A stretch of 64,000 nucleotides of DNA from Candidatus Saccharimonadales bacterium (GCA_038231155.1 JBBRLY010000013.1:196305-260304), one strand, 5' to 3'; counted from the stretch's first letter, positions 25,432 through 36,262 are shown. Numbers and translations: made by a program. Notes: generated from the sequence alone by a model not told the origin.

Positions 25432-28400
25432 ATGGCCCGATTACCACAGCCAGGGGGTGACGACGGAGATTGGGGGATTATACTCAATGATTTCTTAGAT
25501 GTTGCTCATAATCCCGATGGCAGTCTTAAAAATGTTGTTAGTTTAAACACCAGCCAATCTATTAGCGGCGCGAAGACGTTTTCAGTCTCGCCGACTGTAC
25601 CAACACCTGTACTAAGTGGAGATGCTACAACTAAAGCTTACGTGGACAGCACTGCCGGAGCTGGGACGACTGGGGCAACAGGCCCTGCTGGAGCAGCTGG
25701 TGCTACTGGTGCTGGTGTAACTGGTGCTACTGGCCCTATTGGTACAGTTGGAGCAACGGGATCACAAGGCACAACTGGCGCAACCGGATCAGGAGGTAGC
25801 CAAGGAGCAACCGGAGCTACTGGACCGACCGGAAGTACTGGAACGCAAGGTTCTACAGGAGCAACCGGAGCAGGCGTAACTGGAGCTACTGGACCTGCTG
25901 GAACTGTTGGAGCAACAGGTTCACAAGGCACAACTGGCGCAACCGGATCTACCGGCACGCAAGGTACCACTGGTGCGACGGGACCGACTGGGACAACAGG
26001 TACGACAGGCGCCACCGGGACAACAGGTGTACAAGGAGCTACTGGATCAACAGGAAATCAGGGCACTACCGGAGCGACGGGTCCGACTGGGACTACTGGA
26101 ACTACAGGAGCAACCGGTAGTCAAGGTAATGCCGGTGCTACCGGAGCAGTTGGGGCCAGTGGCGCTACTGGGCCTAGAGGTTTTGCTGGTGGTGATACTT
26201 TTACTTATACCTTCGATACAGGCACAACTGATGCAGACCCGGGTTCGGGCAAACTAAGATTTGATAACGCTACTGTTTCCTCGGTCACGCATATTTATGT
26301 AGACGTATTAGATAGTAATGGGACTGATGTTACAACTTGGCTCAACAATATGGGTGGTGGTGTTGTTAAGTTATTTAATAACTCAGACCCCACCAAGTTT
26401 GCTATTTTTACTGTTGGTTCAGTTACCAGCGTCGCTGGATATGATAAGTTAAATGTAACTTATACCACAAATGCTGGGACGCTTGGCACTACGGCCGCAG
26501 ATCTAGTATTAACTTTTGCTCCGCCTGGACCGACCGGTCCGCCAGGCAACGCAAGTACTCAGGGAGCTACCGGAGCTACAGGACCGATTGGTGCTGATGG
26601 AGCAACCGGTGCTGGAACCACAGGAGCCACCGGCTCAGCCGGGGCTTCAGGTTCGGCTGGTGCAACTGGTGCAACCGGAAGCAGTGGTCTCGGTTTTGGT
26701 AACGTAGTTACTAAAACAACTAACTACACAATTGTTTCAGGAGACAATGGCACAGAAATAACATTTAATGGATCTAATTTAACGGCTAAGCTACCAGCCA
26801 CAGCCCCAGCTCAGCCCTGGATGGTAACTGTTATTAATTTAAATGCCAGTAGCTTAACCTTAGATCCTAACGGCCTCACCTTAAATGGTTCAGTAAGTAC
26901 TAGCTCAATAGCTCAAAACCAAAGCGTTTTTGTTTGGTCAGACGGTACTAACTACAATTATGGTACCGGCCCCCAAGGTGCCACCGGACCTACTGGGACA
27001 ACCGGGGGACTAGGTAATACGGGGGCTACAGGTAGTGCTGGTAGTCAAGGAGCTACTGGTTCTGTAGGAGCTACAGGTTCTAGTGGTGGACAAGGGGCTA
27101 CAGGGTCAACTGGTACAACCGGAGTAACCGGTGCGACTGGACCTGCAGGTCAGTTTGGTTTAGCGAGAACTGGTGTTAAAACAGCTAACTATAGTGCTAG
27201 TGTAGGAGACTTAGTTCCTTGTGATACTAATACAACTGGTGCCTTTACGGTAACGCTACCTGATGCCCCAGCAGATAAATCTACTATTGGCATAAAGCTT
27301 ATTATTCAAGGTGCGACTAATACTGTTACTGTAGTCACTCATGCTGATGCTGGAGCTAGTGGTGGAGCAACTGGTTCTGATGTATTTAATAAAGCTGGCG
27401 GTGCAACCAGCTTAACACTTAGTCTACTTAATCAAGGAGTTATCTTAGAATACACGGCTGCATCAGCCATTTGGACAGTGCTAGCCGATGATTTGGCTTT
27501 ATCTCAACTGGATGCACGTTTTATTGCCAGTGGAGGAGCAGCCGGCGGTGACTTAACTGGCACTTATCCAAATCCGACGGTCAGTTCGACAGCTAACTTT
27601 AAGACTCAGGTTGAAACTGTACGTCTTGATCAAATGGCAGTTCCTACAGCTTCAGTTAGTCTTAATTCTCAGAAGATAACTAACCTAGCTAATGGTACTG
27701 CTGCCAGTGATGCTGCAGCCTTTGGGCAAATACCAACTGGGTTACCGCCTACAGGAACAGCCGGTGGTGACTTAACGGGTACTTATCCGAACCCAACTAT
27801 CAAGTCTGGTGTCAGTCTAACTACTCCAAATATTAATGTCGCTACTGCAACTTCTATAAACAAAGTTGCAATTACCGCTCCAGCTACTTCATCAACTTTG
27901 ACTATAGCTGATGGTAAAACACTTACAGTTAACAACTCATTAACATTTGCCGGAACCGATGGTACTACCATGACGTTCCCAAGTACATCGGCCACAATCG
28001 CCCGTACTGATGCTGCAAATACTTTCACCGGTGTCCAGACGATGACCTCGCCAGCTCTGACAACTCCAGCTATAAATGGTATTTCAACCGGAACAGGTGT
28101 AGCTACAGCCGCAACTGCTAGTACATTATTGCTACGAGATACCAATGCCAATGCCACGGCTAATAATTTTATTGAATCATATGCAACTACTACCACAGCT
28201 GCTGGTACTACCACTCTGACCGTAGGTAGTGCTATGCAACAGTACTTTACAGGCAGCGCAACCCAAACTGTTACTTTACCGGTTGCCAGTACCATGGTTC
28301 TTGGCCAAGGCTTTGCATTTACTAACAATAGTACTGGCGCAGTTACTATTAATTCATCTGGTGACAGCGCGGTTCAAGTTATGGCAGCATCATCATCTGC

Positions 28401-34756: not shown

Positions 34757-36262
34757 ATGATTAAACAAATAGTCTTTATCGGTGACTCATTAACGGTCGG
34801 ATTTCAGCTACTCGGTGTCTCGATCGGCCAGGGCGGGAAGGGCGGCTGGGTTGAGCTGGCAGCTGAACTTTTAAATGATGCCCCGACAGTGGGACCGCTT
34901 CTCGGCACCGGCATTCGACCGGTTTCCGGTGGTTGGGTCAGTCTTACTGAATGGAGTTTTGCGGGCAGTTGGACAGCCGTTACTAACAGTAATGCCTTCG
35001 ATAAAATGCCCTATAACTCAATTAAGTATGCCAATGGTGCTACTAACATTGCCACCTTTACGGTCTCCACCCATTGGCGCCCGGCCGTTGGCTTTTGTAT
35101 CTACTATATTGACTACGCCAGCGGTGGTAATTGGCAGTACCGGATTAATGGCGGCAGCTGGACGAACATGGGCCAGACCATTCTAAATGACGATAAATTG
35201 GCCAAATTTTATGTGGCGTCGGCCGTTTCGCCTGGCCAAACCATCGATATTCGGGGGTTCGACGGGACGGCAGATTGCGGCGTATTGCCAGCCGGCATCG
35301 AATTATTCTATAGCGATCCTAGGGTGGCCACTCAGGGCTTGATTGTCCATAATCTGGCCGTTGGGGGAACTTTCATGAGTCAATTATTTCCCAGTGCTCC
35401 GGCCGATCCGTTGGCTTTTTTTGATTCGGTCAAACTTGGCACGGGTTCGCCCATCACCAATTCCCCCAATAGTGGGACGTTTATTATGCACATCAATGAC
35501 GTGGTATTTAACAACGTCGGTCAATGGGCAACTAATCATACATCGTTTTATAATCGCGTCTCGCCGCTGGGTCCGGTCGGCTTTATTAGCCCCTGGGAAA
35601 ATGGCGCCGGGCCGTCCAGTTTTGTCACCAAGGTGACCAATTACACCGTTCTCACAAGTGACAACGTTTTTGGGTTTAACTTTAATGGCACTAGCCTAAC
35701 TGCCACCTTACCAGCAACCCCCCCTGCACCAGGACTTATTTCCTGGTATGTCATCATTATCAATCTTAATGCCAGCGCTCTGACCATTAATCCGAATAGC
35801 AATACGTTAACTGGGTCGAGCACAGTGGCTCAGAATCAGGTTGTCCAAATCACCTCCAATGGCACCAAATACACTGTTAGTACCAATGGAGCCTACAATC
35901 AAGCCAACTTTCGGGCGTCAACTAAGTCATCGGCTCAATCCCTGGGTGCTCAAATTTTTGATATTTATGACGCCTGGAACGCCAATGGCTGGGGGAATGT
36001 CGTCGGCACTCAGAGCGCGGCCCTGATAGCTCAGGGCTTTACCATCCCCGATGATAGTGGCACCCATCCCACCCAAGCCGCTCACTTAGATTTAGCAGTT
36101 CGTATATATTGGTTTTTGCGTAATCAAATCCTCGGAATTAGCAATGAACCTGCAGCTTATTCAGTCGGAGCAAAACAAGTTGCATCCAGTTATACTGGCA
36201 GTAAACCAGCGGTTGCTTATACTTCTAGTTTACCAATTTCGTTATTACCGCTAGATCATTGA
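34757..36262 (+). CDS. SGNH/GDSL-type hydrolase fused to a fibre-type module
   Basis: 501 aa. The N-terminal block IVFIGDSLTVGF gives the GDS catalytic Ser. An internal segment (nt 35621-35885), VTKVTNYTVLTSDN...TATLPATPPAP...IIINLNASALTINPNSNTLTGSSTVAQNQVVQITSNGTKY, matches fibre 1 at nt 26701-26965. A late DSGTHP may be block V (DxxH). Confidence 0.72.
   Translation: MIKQIVFIGDSLTVGFQLLGVSIGQGGKGGWVELAAELLNDAPTVGPLLGTGIRPVSGGWVSLTEWSFAGSWTAVTNSNAFDKMPYNSIKYANGATNIATFTVSTHWRPAVGFCIYYIDYASGGNWQYRINGGSWTNMGQTILNDDKLAKFYVASAVSPGQTIDIRGFDGTADCGVLPAGIELFYSDPRVATQGLIVHNLAVGGTFMSQLFPSAPADPLAFFDSVKLGTGSPITNSPNSGTFIMHINDVVFNNVGQWATNHTSFYNRVSPLGPVGFISPWENGAGPSSFVTKVTNYTVLTSDNVFGFNFNGTSLTATLPATPPAPGLISWYVIIINLNASALTINPNSNTLTGSSTVAQNQVVQITSNGTKYTVSTNGAYNQANFRASTKSSAQSLGAQIFDIYDAWNANGWGNVVGTQSAALIAQGFTIPDDSGTHPTQAAHLDLAVRIYWFLRNQILGISNEPAAYSVGAKQVASSYTGSKPAVAYTSSLPISLLPLDH

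What the first reader, a model, noticed from the sequence alone, without database searches (positions are those of the whole stretch)
25432..36262. Phage-free chromosomal locus of two giant collagen-like tail-fibre paralogs, small coiled-coil ORFs and a module-sharing SGNH esterase: candidate cell-surface receptor-binding fibre system
Seen: two ORFs of 1790 and 1080 aa share a nearly identical N-terminus, [33 protein letters not shown] ... [16 protein letters not shown] ... DATTKAYVD. Each then has a long G-X-T triplet tract, a shared globular insert ([10 protein letters not shown] ... DPGSGK(L/F)R(F/Y)DNATVSSVT ... [17 protein letters not shown]) and a second triplet tract. After about residue 430 the two proteins are unrelated. 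Neither has a signal peptide. An 89-aa ORF (start 1 nt after the fibre 1 stop) and a 50-aa ORF, both coiled-coil-like, sit between them. A GDS(L)-type hydrolase carrying a fibre-type module follows, then a GT-B glycosyltransferase and a 14-blade RCC1 protein. I see no capsid, portal, terminase, tape-measure, baseplate, lysin or integrase gene anywhere in the 64 kb. Known: a conserved N-terminus with a variable C-terminus, K-x-YVD-type motifs and collagen-like trimerising tracts are typical of phage tail fibres and receptor-binding proteins, and of BclA-like bacterial filaments. SGNH esterases often accompany phage receptor-binding proteins as receptor-modifying enzymes. Inference: this may be a cellular (domesticated) fibre system with exchangeable receptor-binding tips, plausibly used by a reduced episymbiont to bind its host's surface. 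It could also be the tip of a prophage or tailocin whose remainder lies elsewhere.
Basis: partly seen in the sequence, partly recalled or inferred. Interest (0 to 1): 0.85.

Follow-up and report, generated by a model that had tools for sequence, protein, structure and literature searches.

The report
Tat-linked phage-type surface fibre cassette
A tiny symbiotic bacterium (Saccharibacteria) carries phage tail-fibre-like proteins with no phage around them, and these genes always travel with a folded-protein export system (Tat) and a 67-residue "signal-peptide-only" protein, which points to a previously undescribed way of putting ready-made fibres on a cell surface.

Summary
Two signal-less collagen-like giants (1790 and 1080 aa) share an N-terminus and an insert domain. 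Two small helical ORFs and an SGNH esterase that shares a module with fibre 1 go with them. The genome (0.93 Mb, 96.8% complete) gave no match to six phage structural or packaging families.

o67 is little more than a twin-arginine-type signal peptide plus a conserved GYGSSxYGG tail.

- In 301 genomes of the order, the fibres' 33-aa N-cap, o67 and TatC occur together: 102 genomes have all three, 179-180 lack each pair.
- In a phylum-wide sample, all 11 N-cap genomes are among the 15 TatC-positive ones; none of the 286 TatC-negative genomes has it.
- o67 lies immediately 5' of an N-cap gene in about 21 of 29 loci examined.
- The same TatA/o67/N-cap cassette occurs in Mycobacterium, Pseudonocardiales and Acidobacteriota.
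- In true phage contigs the N-cap protein sits in the tail module, without Tat or o67.

Best reading: domesticated phage fibres and wall-active enzymes are exported folded through Tat, piloted or anchored by o67. Binding, export and surface display are inferred, not shown.

The parts
23050..23766 (-). o238: Sec-signal protein with a C-terminal membrane anchor. Its mature N-terminus carries a Y/G motif (STYGSGNYGACKYSQGC). It is transcribed divergently from the Tat genes.
   Evidence: Translation and hydropathy. Homologues lie beside TatA/TatC in L006, L022, L026 and L028. The motif is conserved in L022, L054 and L122. Small Y/G-motif proteins with LPXTG-like signals hold the same position in G376, G537, Mycobacterium JS623 and L040/L041.
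23820..23996 (+). TatA
   Evidence: Translation MFGKTEDLVIVLLIILLLFGAKKIPDLARSIG.... The homologous gene in L006 carries PF02416.
24037..25011 (+). TatC
   Evidence: Pfam PF00902, E 3e-49.
25097..25300 (+). o67: a 67-aa protein made of a twin-arginine-type signal (MNRKEFL plus a Gly/Ala-rich h-region) and a conserved C-terminal GYGSSSYGGGRKR tail. Proposed pilot and/or membrane anchor for the fibres.
   Evidence: Translation. NCBIfam NF038009 'twin-arginine translocation system-associated protein', E 9e-17, below its cut-off. Alignment A1: invariant R17, F20, G33 and Y61. The same signal type is found fused to 361- and 497-aa passenger proteins in G243. Co-occurrence and adjacency. Promoter-like site at 25030-25059 (a consensus match only).
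25432..30804 (+). Fibre 1 (1790 aa). Its parts are the N-cap aa 1-33 (25432-25530), a stem with ISGAKTF...TKAYVD (25531-25650), collagen tracts (25651-26196, 26527-26694, 26968-27165), an insert domain (26188-26526), a ~85-aa module shared with the esterase (26707-26955), a 260-nt internal duplication (27539-27798 and 28481-28740), a region like phage head-decoration proteins (28840-29520) and a unique C-terminal part.
   Evidence: Insert-domain model and its BFVD matches.
30806..31075 (+). 89-aa helical ORF that starts 1 nt after the fibre-1 stop. Candidate fibre-assembly helper, judged from position only.
   Evidence: No family hit. Small helical ORFs of another sequence family hold the same position after long fibre genes in L022 (16083-16307) and L024 (6246-6434).
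31163..31315 (+). 50-aa helical ORF
   Evidence: No significant family hit.
31380..34622 (+). Fibre 2 (1080 aa). Its parts are the N-cap (31380-31478), collagen (31611-31970), the insert domain (31956-32315), further collagen, two ~90-aa modules and a distinct C-terminal head (33897-34619).
   Evidence: The clusters nearest to the C-terminal part in the ESM Atlas are viral (scores 0.92-0.93).
34757..36262 (+). Signal-less SGNH esterase with an inserted CBM35-like sandwich (Ape1-like architecture) and a second insert (aa 285-380) that is the fibre-type module.
   Evidence: GDS, N247 and H437 are conserved. AF2 model, mean pLDDT 78. Foldseek 4k3u, E 7e-12. VIA Z 26 to Ape1 against Z 15 for plain SGNH enzymes. 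Module shared with fibre 1.
36360..37526 (+). GT1 glycosyltransferase: the conserved right-hand flank of the variable island.
   Evidence: Pfam. 80-88% identical in L006, L023 and L025, directly after their fibre/esterase genes.
20298..21023 (-). Sortase (context: a neighbourhood of cell-surface genes).
   Evidence: Pfam PF04203, E 6e-23.

Best explanation
The locus is the client part of a conserved chromosomal cassette: a Y/G-motif anchor protein, then TatA, TatC and o67, then the N-cap proteins.

The two fibres are domesticated phage tail-fibre-type trimers. Each has a 33-aa N-terminal cap, collagen-like shafts strung with phage-type bead domains, and a different C-terminal head. The adjacent enzyme is an Ape1-like O-acetylesterase.

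Proposed mechanism:
1. The fibres fold and trimerise in the cytoplasm, as phage fibres do, perhaps helped by the small helical ORFs.
2. Their invariant N-cap, which in phages plugs into the tail tip, associates with o67. o67 supplies the twin-arginine signal that the fibres lack.
3. TatA/TatC export the folded assembly, as in hitchhiker export.
4. The uncleaved h-region of o67 holds the fibre base at the membrane, and/or the Y/G-motif anchor proteins hold it at the wall. The head points outward to bind, and the enzymes modify, the envelope of the actinobacterial host.

Shown:
- gene content, phage homology and the absence of matches to six phage hallmark families;
- the Tat-signal features of o67;
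- the phyletic and positional coupling of Tat, o67 and the N-cap.

Inferred: o67/N-cap binding, Tat-dependent export, surface display, host binding and the esterase's substrate.
For: 1. Phyletic coupling within the order (301 genomes). The N-cap is in 112, o67 in 115 and TatC in 115. All three are in 102. N-cap without TatC: 7. TatC without N-cap: 10. Neither: 179. The pattern is patchy within families and genera, and the three markers agree there: g11 1/2, g14 4/5, f4 3-4/13, f29 2/13.
2. Phyletic coupling across the phylum (301 genomes). TatC is in 15 and the N-cap in 11, and all 11 are among the 15. None of the 286 TatC-negative genomes has the N-cap. Ten of the 11 also have o67. Other classes and orders are included: G376, G403, G424, G462, G537.
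3. Position. o67 lies within 300 nt or less, 5' and on the same strand, of an N-cap gene in about 21 of 29 fetched loci. In several the stop and start touch or overlap: L026, L028, L039, L044, L050.
4. o67 carries a conserved [DNST]-R-[KR]-[EQ]-F-L motif and an h-region. The same signal is fused to ordinary passenger proteins in G243 and G303, so it is an export signal.
5. A crude scan of the whole genome finds no other convincing Tat substrate. Starr et al. 2018 (PMC6031116) likewise found few in a Tat-positive Saccharibacterium.
6. The fibres and the esterase lack signal peptides, while neighbouring surface proteins have them.
7. The same cassette occurs outside the phylum: Mycobacterium sp. 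JS623 (TatA, an uncalled o67 at L050 7804-8001, an N-cap beta-helix protein), a Pseudonocardiales genome (TatA, o67 with DRRGFLK, an N-cap pectate-lyase-like protein) and an Acidobacteriota genome.
8. In phage contigs the N-cap gene lies in the tail module after the tape measure, with no Tat or o67 within 10 kb. o67 has no hit in 50,697 phage genomes.
9. There are three matched subtype pairs of o67 tail and N-cap, one of them shared by two different families.
10. Client C-termini in relatives are phage-spike-like enzymes and binders: pectate-lyase beta-helices, K1-lyase Rider, HylP, GH172, GDSL, CBM5/12.
Against: - No direct evidence of o67/N-cap binding, of export or of surface location.
- The second Arg of the signal is Lys in many o67 proteins, including the window's, and Leu or Thr in two. 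That is atypical for Tat signals.
- Trimers of 1080-1790 aa, with collagen parts that alone would span tens of nanometres, are far larger and longer than any Tat cargo known to me (my own knowledge, not tested here).
- N-cap genes outnumber o67 genes (up to 13-15 against 1-3 per genome) and most are not adjacent to o67: only 18 of 79 loci have o67 within 4 kb. One pilot would have to serve many dispersed clients.
- Related genomes are not independent, so the Fisher values overstate the association.
- Seven N-cap genomes lacked a TatC hit, two of them 97-99% complete but fragmented.
- Matched subtype pairs could arise from co-transfer of adjacent genes without any physical contact.
- The N-cap also works in phages without o67, so it did not evolve as an o67 ligand.
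Confidence: 0.55

Rival explanations
1. The fibres are real cell-surface adhesins, but they leave the cell by another, unknown route. o67 is an independent small Tat substrate, for example a membrane or wall peptide that only serves as the fibre's docking socket outside the cell, or is merely co-regulated with the fibres.
For: The co-occurrence and adjacency would follow equally well if o67 needs Tat and the fibres need o67 only as an anchor. Most N-cap genes are not adjacent to o67. Fibre size argues against passage through Tat (my own knowledge).
Against: No alternative export signal or machinery is evident for proteins that start M-A-R-L-P with no hydrophobic stretch. The actinobacterial cassettes carry an extra TatA next to o67 and the client, which points to the translocon itself. 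Stop/start overlap of o67 and the client gene fits partners that meet in the cytoplasm.
Confidence: 0.2
2. o67 is an accessory receptor subunit of a specialised Tat translocon, not a substrate. It recognises the N-cap as a non-canonical targeting signal.
For: NCBIfam files a related family as 'Tat system-associated'. o67 lies next to TatC or TatA on either side. The N-cap always starts at Met1 and has ten invariant positions, as a targeting signal would.
Against: The o67 N-half has the n-region motif plus h-region layout of a signal peptide. It also occurs as the N-terminus of ordinary 360-500-aa proteins, followed by an SHA-A cleavage-like site. It does not resemble TatA or TatB (for the true TatA).
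Confidence: 0.1
3. The locus is the remnant or detached tip of a prophage, tailocin or other phage-tail-like particle whose other genes lie elsewhere.
For: All modules are of phage-fibre type. In real phages the N-cap protein is a tail-module gene. GC content is raised over the locus.
Against: No match to terminase, capsid, portal, sheath, tape-measure or baseplate-J families in a 96.8%-complete genome. The island has a conserved chromosomal position across genera. The family is present in 112 of 301 genomes of the order, with up to 13-15 copies scattered among housekeeping genes. The raised GC is largely explained by Gly/Thr/Ala codons in the collagen tracts.
Confidence: 0.05
4. The proteins stay inside the cell or act against phages. 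They could be decoys that titrate the tail-assembly sites of an infecting phage, or host-encoded fibres picked up by phages. In that case the Tat link would be indirect.
For: There is no signal peptide. The N-cap is shared with phage tail proteins. The actinobacterial cassettes lie in islands with defence genes: DarT, HEPN/AbiV and a ubiquitin-like system.
Against: This reading explains neither the near-perfect coupling to TatC and a Tat-signal protein nor the wall-polysaccharide enzymes fused to the N-cap.
Confidence: 0.05

Closest known systems
Phage tail fibres and tailspikes with a conserved N-terminal anchor and exchangeable C-terminal receptor-binding or depolymerase domains (for example siphovirus tail-tip fibres and collagen-like minor tail proteins)
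   Same: The N-cap is found in tail-module genes of phage contigs. The collagen shafts, the insert bead domain (BFVD E 4e-10, TMq about 0.8), the decoration-like domains and the BppL_N, DUF5907, PTR and tailspike domains in relatives are all phage-type. Small ORFs follow the fibre gene, as fibre chaperones do in phages.
   Different: There is no virion here. The genes are chromosomal, held in synteny across genera, multi-copy, and coupled to Tat and o67, which phages lack.
Tat 'hitchhiker' export, where a signal-less subunit is carried by a partner with a twin-arginine signal (E. coli HybO/HybC, DmsA/DmsB, PaoABC; PMC4273604)
   Same: A signal-less folded oligomer is encoded next to a protein that bears a twin-arginine-type signal, and TatA/TatC are present.
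   Different: The carrier here is only 67 aa: a signal plus a short tail, not a functional subunit. The cargo is not a redox enzyme but a family of phage-type fibres and glycan enzymes. One carrier would serve many clients. Binding and export have not been demonstrated.
Tat-fimbriae ('tafi') of Haloarcula hispanica (Galeva et al. 2025, PMC11821415)
   Same: A surface filament whose biogenesis depends on Tat. Its authors call it the first case that links Tat to filament subunits.
   Different: Each tafi subunit carries its own Tat signal, and the subunits polymerise outside the cell by donor-strand exchange. Here the fibres are pre-formed trimers without a signal, of phage ancestry, in bacteria.
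Bacterial collagen-like surface proteins (Bacillus BclA, Streptococcus Scl1/Scl2, Legionella Lcl)
   Same: G-X-T collagen-like triple-helix tracts that end in a globular C-terminal domain. There are sub-threshold NCBIfam hits driven by the collagen region.
   Different: There is no Sec signal, no LPXTG anchor and no exosporium-targeting N-terminus. All scores lie far below the family cut-offs.
Peptidoglycan O-acetylesterase Ape1 (Neisseria 4K3U, Campylobacter 8GKD)
   Same: P0003 shares the two-domain architecture: an SGNH core with an inserted CBM35-like sandwich. Z is 26 over about 310 aligned residues, against Z of about 15 for single-domain SGNH enzymes.
   Different: Sequence identity is only 11-12%. 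P0003 has an extra fibre-type module and no signal peptide. Its substrate is unknown.

Membership tests
Phage tail fibre / receptor-binding protein (as a protein kind) | Homology of the structural modules to virion fibre proteins | tested here: met
   PHROG tail-fibre families are hit, but mostly through collagen. Non-collagen evidence: the insert domain matches viral collagen-fibre proteins, aa 1137-1363 match phage decoration proteins, and the N-cap occurs in phage tail-module genes.
Phage tail fibre / receptor-binding protein (as a protein kind) | Encoded within a phage or phage-tail-like structural gene module | tested here: not met
   The flanks are TatA/TatC/o67, a sortase, GT1 and Nramp. 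No match to six hallmark families in the genome.
Prophage / tailocin / contractile injection system | Terminase, portal and capsid, or sheath, tape measure and baseplate genes in the same genome | tested here: not met
   PF03354, PF05065, PF04860, PF04984, PF10145 and PF04865 all gave no match in G000 (96.8% complete). Homologues too divergent for Pfam cannot be excluded.
Classical Tat substrate | An N-terminal twin-arginine signal peptide on the exported protein itself | tested here: not met
   The fibres start [12 protein letters not shown] and [12 protein letters not shown], with a single Arg and no h-region.
Tat signal peptide (applied to o67) | S/T-R-R-x-F-L-K-type motif followed by a moderately hydrophobic h-region, with TatA and TatC present | tested here: met
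   The motif [DNST]-R-[KR]-[EQ]-F-L has invariant R17 and F20. The second position is R in about a third of the sequences and K in most others, including the window's. An h-region follows. TatA and TatC are adjacent. The same signal is fused to passenger proteins. Whether it functions with R-K was not tested.
Tat hitchhiker complex | Genetic linkage and co-inheritance of a signal-less cargo with a signal-bearing partner | tested here: met
Tat hitchhiker complex | Physical complex of cargo and carrier formed before export, and export dependent on Tat | not testable with these tools
   This needs biochemistry or genetics.
BclA / Scl-type bacterial collagen-like surface proteins | A Sec signal or exosporium-targeting motif, and (for Scl) a C-terminal LPXTG anchor | tested here: not met
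   No signal and no LPXTG. NCBIfam scores are 60-113 bits against cut-offs of 325-500.
SGNH hydrolase | Catalytic Ser in a GDS block, Gly and Asn blocks, a D-x-x-H block, and the SGNH fold | tested here: met
   G9-D10-S11 are nearly invariant and N247 and H437 are invariant in 33 homologues. The fold matches SGNH enzymes at Z 14-26. The Pfam GDSL score is below its cut-off (18.1 against 23.6 bits).
Ape1-type peptidoglycan O-acetylesterase | SGNH domain with an inserted CBM35-like domain, and activity on O-acetylated MurNAc | tested here: inconclusive
   The architecture matches (Z 26, rmsd 3.4 over about 310 residues). Identity is 11-12%, and the substrate cannot be tested here.

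The most novel reading that the evidence does not exclude
Saccharibacteria, and mobile islands of their actinobacterial hosts and other phyla, possess a dedicated branch of the Tat pathway. In it a 'signal-peptide-only' mini-protein (o67) pilots pre-assembled, signal-less phage-type trimeric fibres and wall-polysaccharide enzymes across the membrane, then tethers them there. They may then be handed to Y/G-motif proteins anchored in the wall by sortase. 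The shared 33-aa N-cap, once a phage tail-tip plug, has become the common export and anchoring handle of a polymorphic toolkit for attacking the host surface.
Probability: 0.4. Interest if true: 0.9.

Novelty: new variant of a known kind. Interest (0 to 1): 0.8.

Why it matters
How ultra-small episymbionts recognise and attach to their hosts is largely unknown, and so is what the patchily distributed Tat system does in them. This cassette makes both questions testable.

- It names a large, modular family of phage-derived fibres and glycan enzymes as candidate host-surface tools. The family is found in about a third of the genomes sampled from the order.
- It proposes a concrete export and anchoring route with three small, mutable parts: the N-cap, o67 and TatC.

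If the route holds, it would extend Tat hitchhiking to very large non-redox cargo. It would be a bacterial counterpart to the archaeal Tat-fimbriae. It would also show a way, not described in the papers I searched, in which phage receptor-binding proteins are domesticated without the rest of the tail. The shared cassette in Actinobacteria, the known hosts of Saccharibacteria, hints at gene flow between symbiont, host and their phages.

Tried and rejected
- Complex prediction of the N-cap (A2, aa 1-80) with o67 (A1), 1:1: 'no answer', score 0.00, controls not run. This is not evidence either way.
- The look-up of sequencing runs: no RNA holder listed. Only two DNA runs (sediment and soil metagenomes, probably the source) hold the stretch. 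So there is no information on expression, and read laying was not used.
The global family size is therefore unknown.
- The search for homologous proteins with o67 gave only 10 hits, because of the tool's word filter.
- Foldseek of the insert-domain model against the PDB gave no significant match. The viral library did.
- Sequence searches of the PDB gave nothing for fibre 2's C-terminal part, the esterase or the insert.
- P0004 and P0005 (and the 46-aa ORF at 34624-34764) had no sequence homologue in ten related loci, so 'conserved chaperone family' was dropped in favour of 'positional analogue'.
- An N-cap/GDSL fusion (P0064) has a different SGNH lineage from P0003, so it is not a direct Rosetta-stone for P0003.
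- Literature searches found no paper that links Saccharibacteria, Tat and fibre proteins.
- The Streptomyces BK-type phage homologues of aa 1-36 lie in tRNA-array regions, not tail modules, so they say nothing about function.
- No tRNA or Rfam element lies beside the island.
- The ESM Atlas lead from o67 to the [FeFe]-hydrogenase small subunit (score 0.88) is below the reliability mark and is not used.

Full report
OBSERVATION. Fibre 1 (25432-30804, 1790 aa) and fibre 2 (31380-34622, 1080 aa) share an N-terminus that is 78% identical over 80 aa. They also share a collagen-plus-insert region that is 71% identical over 192 aa (E 1e-70). BLAST finds nothing in common beyond aa 386 of fibre 1 and aa 329 of fibre 2. 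Pfam calls collagen repeats in both, and Thr dominates the Y position of the triplets. The 89-aa ORF starts one base after the fibre-1 stop. It and the 50-aa ORF are helical and have no family. Neither fibre has a hydrophobic N-terminus or a membrane segment. The neighbouring ORFs o308, o484, o140, o238 and the RCC1 protein do have Sec-type signals. Aa 290-372 of the 501-aa ORF are 55% identical to fibre 1 aa 426-508 (E 3e-19), which confirms the shared module. GT1 and a protein with 12-14 RCC1 repeats follow. GC content rises to 0.47-0.54 over the locus, against about 0.39 in the flanks. Gly/Thr/Ala codons in the triplet tracts explain much of that rise.

WHAT THE PROTEINS ARE. The PHROG hits to tail-fibre families are largely driven by collagen. 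Independent evidence confirms a phage-fibre origin:
- The insert domain (AF2 model, pLDDT 80) matches collagen-repeat and tail-fibre proteins of uncultured tailed phages, cyanophages and giant viruses (E down to 4e-10, TMq about 0.8, up to 35% identity). It has no PDB match. In relatives it is repeated up to four or five times per fibre, like beads on a collagen string.
- Fibre 1 aa 1137-1363 match solved phage capsid-decoration proteins (9nx3 at E 1e-10, 8eci at E 6.5e-6).
- The clusters nearest to fibre 2's C-terminal part in the ESM Atlas are viral (scores 0.92-0.93).

The esterase keeps the SGNH residues: GDS with S11, N247 and H437. Its model (pLDDT 78) is closest to the peptidoglycan O-acetylesterase Ape1, with which it shares the SGNH-plus-CBM35-insert layout. 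The Foldseek E-value is 7e-12. The VIA Z-score is 26 over about 310 residues, against about 15 for plain SGNH enzymes.

NOT A PROPHAGE. The window lies in a 260.9-kb contig of a 928,683-bp, 96.8%-complete assembly. The closest relatives are labelled Candidatus Saccharibacteria or Saccharimonadales. Terminase, HK97 capsid, portal, sheath, tape-measure and baseplate-J families give no match anywhere in the genome. The only tyrosine recombinase is on another contig. The island is syntenic. In related genera the same string recurs: o238, TatA, TatC, o67, then [fibres and esterases], then GT1 (80-88% identical), o238b and Nramp. The content between o67 and GT1 varies. Other family members sit among ValRS, TsaD, FtsH, MurJ and similar genes.

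THE N-CAP FAMILY. The first 33 residues (MARLPxPGGDDGxWGxILNxFLxVxHNxDGxLK) always start at Met1 and have ten invariant positions in 40 sequences. In many homologues collagen follows directly. The cap is fused to collagen, CBM5/12, pectate-lyase-type beta-helices, the K1-lyase Rider domain, tailspike Ig and Gp49 domains, HylP hyaluronidase, GH172 (DUF2961), GDSL esterases, and DUF5907, PTR and BppL_N repeats. It occurs in 112 of 301 genomes sampled from the order (87 of 218 genera), with up to 13-15 matches per genome. Across 185,579 species genomes there are 496 relatives, and the best 80 are almost all Saccharibacteria. Phage collections hold far fewer: 26 loci in 2.9 million IMG/VR contigs and a handful of Streptomyces phages. 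Where the contig is clearly a phage, the N-cap gene lies in the tail module. L131 runs major tail protein, tape measure, then the N-cap gene. L144 runs tape measure, a 778-aa gene, then the N-cap gene. So the cap is a phage tail-tip anchor that has been taken over by cells.

Directly upstream of fibre 1 lie TatA (23820-23996), TatC (24037-25011, Pfam E 3e-49) and a 67-aa ORF, o67 (25097-25300). o67 reads MANNKNLQKLFDKEMNRKEFLAHLGAAGLTIVGVSGLLKSLLNYSSKPRQHVSDGYGSSSYGGGRKR. It has an n-region with an R-K-E-F-L motif, a Gly/Ala-rich h-region and a short tail. In 30 homologues R17, F20, G33 and Y61 are invariant. The motif is [DNST]-R-[KR]-[EQ]-F-L, with R-R in about a third, and the C-terminus is GYGSSxYGG followed by basic residues. 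NCBIfam's 'twin-arginine translocation system-associated protein' model hits it below its cut-off. The same signal stands at the N-terminus of ordinary 360-500-aa proteins in G243 and G303, there followed by an SHA-A cleavage-like site. The o67 N-half is therefore an export signal, not a translocon subunit. A crude whole-genome scan finds no other convincing Tat substrate. This fits Starr et al. 2018, who found Tat in only one of the Saccharibacteria they analysed, and only a few dubious substrates there.

CO-OCCURRENCE.
- Order sample (301 genomes): N-cap 112, o67 115, TatC 115. All three are present in 102. N-cap with TatC 105, N-cap only 7, TatC only 10, neither 179. For o67 against TatC the counts are 109, 6, 6 and 180.
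- The pattern is patchy within families and genera, and the three markers agree there: f4 3-4/13, f9 7-8/13, f28 2/6, f29 2/13, g11 1/2, g14 4/5.
- Most exceptions are incomplete assemblies.
- Phylum sample (301 genomes): TatC 15, N-cap 11. All 11 lie within the 15, and none of the 286 TatC-negative genomes has the cap. Ten of the 11 have o67. Other classes and orders show the same cluster (G376, G462, G537).

Caveats: relatives are not independent, so the Fisher values overstate the link. One of the 301 genomes of the order sample (G262, positive for all three) is unpublished. It contributes one count to the order tallies and nothing else in this report rests on it.

ADJACENCY AND CROSS-PHYLUM CASSETTE. 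In about 21 of 29 fetched o67 loci an N-cap gene follows within 300 nt on the same strand. Several have touching or overlapping stop and start codons. The remaining o67 genes lie beside TatA or TatC. Of 79 cellular N-cap loci, 18 have o67 within 4 kb. None of the 26 viral loci has o67, TatA or TatC within 10 kb, and o67 has no hit in 50,697 phage genomes. The cassette also occurs outside the phylum:
- Mycobacterium sp. JS623 has TatA, an unannotated o67 (L050 7804-8001, MDRKGFLK...GYSSATYGG) whose stop overlaps the start of a 1585-aa N-cap beta-helix protein, and a small Y/G-motif anchor protein upstream.
- A Pseudonocardiales genome has a serine recombinase, TatA, o67 (MDRRGFLK), a prepilin-like gene and an N-cap pectate-lyase-like protein.
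- An Acidobacteriota genome has TatA, TatC, o67 and an N-cap gene.

Three o67-tail types pair with three N-cap variants: GYGSSxYGG with PGGDDG, GFGxGxFGV with QRLPxVNGDDGQWG...KEHYDDGT, and AYGWxGYSGI with PGQD[IV]G. The last pair occurs in two different families. Co-transfer of neighbouring genes could also produce this pattern.

A FOURTH RECURRING PART. A Sec-exported protein with a Y/G motif (YGSGNYGACKY or similar) and a membrane or LPXTG-like anchor lies divergently upstream of the Tat/o67 genes. It is found in the window (o238), L022, L054, L122, G376, G537, Mycobacterium and L040/L041. A sortase gene is nearby in the window. The motif resembles the o67 tail. Its role is unknown.

MECHANISM. 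I take the fibres to be cytoplasmically folded trimers. Their phage-derived N-cap associates with o67. o67 supplies the Tat signal, TatA/TatC export the assembly, and o67 (perhaps followed by the Y/G anchor proteins) tethers the base while the heads and enzymes face the host. Only the genetic coupling, the signal features and the phage homology are shown. The main difficulties are cargo size, the R-K variant of the motif, the 1-3 o67 genes against many dispersed clients, and the lack of any binding, export or expression data. The complex prediction gave no verdict and no RNA run was available.

COMPARISON AND NOVELTY. The closest known concepts are Tat hitchhiker export of redox enzymes, the archaeal Tat-fimbriae, phage fibres with modular tips, BclA/Scl collagen-like proteins, and Ape1. 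The locus fails the membership tests for prophage or tailocin, for classical Tat substrate and for BclA/Scl. It meets those for phage-type fibre modules and for SGNH hydrolase, and o67 meets the sequence definition of a Tat-type signal. I found no paper that links Saccharibacteria, Tat and fibre proteins. I rate it a new variant of known kinds: domesticated phage fibres combined with Tat piggy-back export. Confidence is high (about 0.9) that it is a cellular, Tat/o67-linked family. Confidence is moderate (about 0.55) that Tat and o67 actually export or anchor the fibres.

Noticed in passing
window 23050-23766 (-); also L022 9485-10171, L054 576-1256, L122 1471-2232, L161 487-756, L162 4462-4695, L050 7279-7491: Proteins transcribed divergently from the Tat/o67 genes carry a Y/G motif (for example STYGSGNYGACKYSQGC straight after the signal-peptidase site) that resembles the o67 tail GYGSSxYGG. 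They end in a membrane anchor or an LPXTG-like signal (LPVTG, LPTTG, LANTG, APNTG). They may be a wall-side docking partner of the system.
   Followed up: partly
window 19315-22390: A cluster of cell-surface genes lies upstream: a 308-aa signal-peptide protein, a sortase (20298-21023, minus strand) and a 484-aa protein with a signal peptide and a C-terminal hydrophobic segment (20936-22390, minus strand), a likely sortase substrate.
   Followed up: no
window 37558-39837 (-) and 40750-41232 (-): The 759-aa RCC1-repeat protein (with an N-terminal hydrophobic segment) and a small methyltransferase-like ORF are missing from the syntenic stretch of the relative G181, where GT1 is followed directly by o238b and Nramp. 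They look like separate insertions, not part of the fibre system.
   Followed up: partly
window 27539-27798 and 28481-28740: A 260-nt internal duplication (91% identical) lies within fibre 1. It encodes the repeated [13 protein letters not shown]...[24 protein letters not shown] segment, a recent module duplication inside the gene.
   Followed up: no
L009 10001-12373 (P0088; Candidatus Saccharibacteria genome JAECRG01): In this relative the N-cap is fused to a GH172 (DUF2961) domain. From my own knowledge, GH172 includes D-arabinan-degrading enzymes active on mycobacterial cell walls. If so, this would fit an attack on actinobacterial host envelopes. Not tested here.
   Followed up: no
L157 918-2408 (-) and 5115-6197 (+) (G243:C7): Two proteins of 497 and 361 aa begin with an o67-like signal (LTRKEFI plus an h-region), then an SHA-A cleavage-like site and a passenger domain. 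This shows that the o67 N-half also serves as an ordinary signal peptide in Saccharibacteria.
   Followed up: partly
L003 7956-9398 (Streptomyces phage GiJojo gp34); L004 7791-8738 (phage BRock gp186): Streptomyces phages of about 113-115 kb encode proteins with the N-cap (aa 1-36, 57-64% identical). One is annotated as a collagen-repeat protein. These genes lie inside the large tRNA-gene arrays rather than in the tail module.
   Followed up: partly
L051 4378-7912 and L050 14908-18844: The actinobacterial TatA/o67/N-cap cassettes sit in mobile or defence islands: a serine recombinase, a prepilin-like gene, DarT with an ADP-ribosyl glycohydrolase, a ubiquitin-like/ThiF system and HEPN/AbiV.
   Followed up: no
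window 34624-34764: A 46-aa basic ORF starts 2 nt after the fibre-2 stop and overlaps the start of the esterase gene. It has no helical-repeat character and may not be a gene.
   Followed up: no
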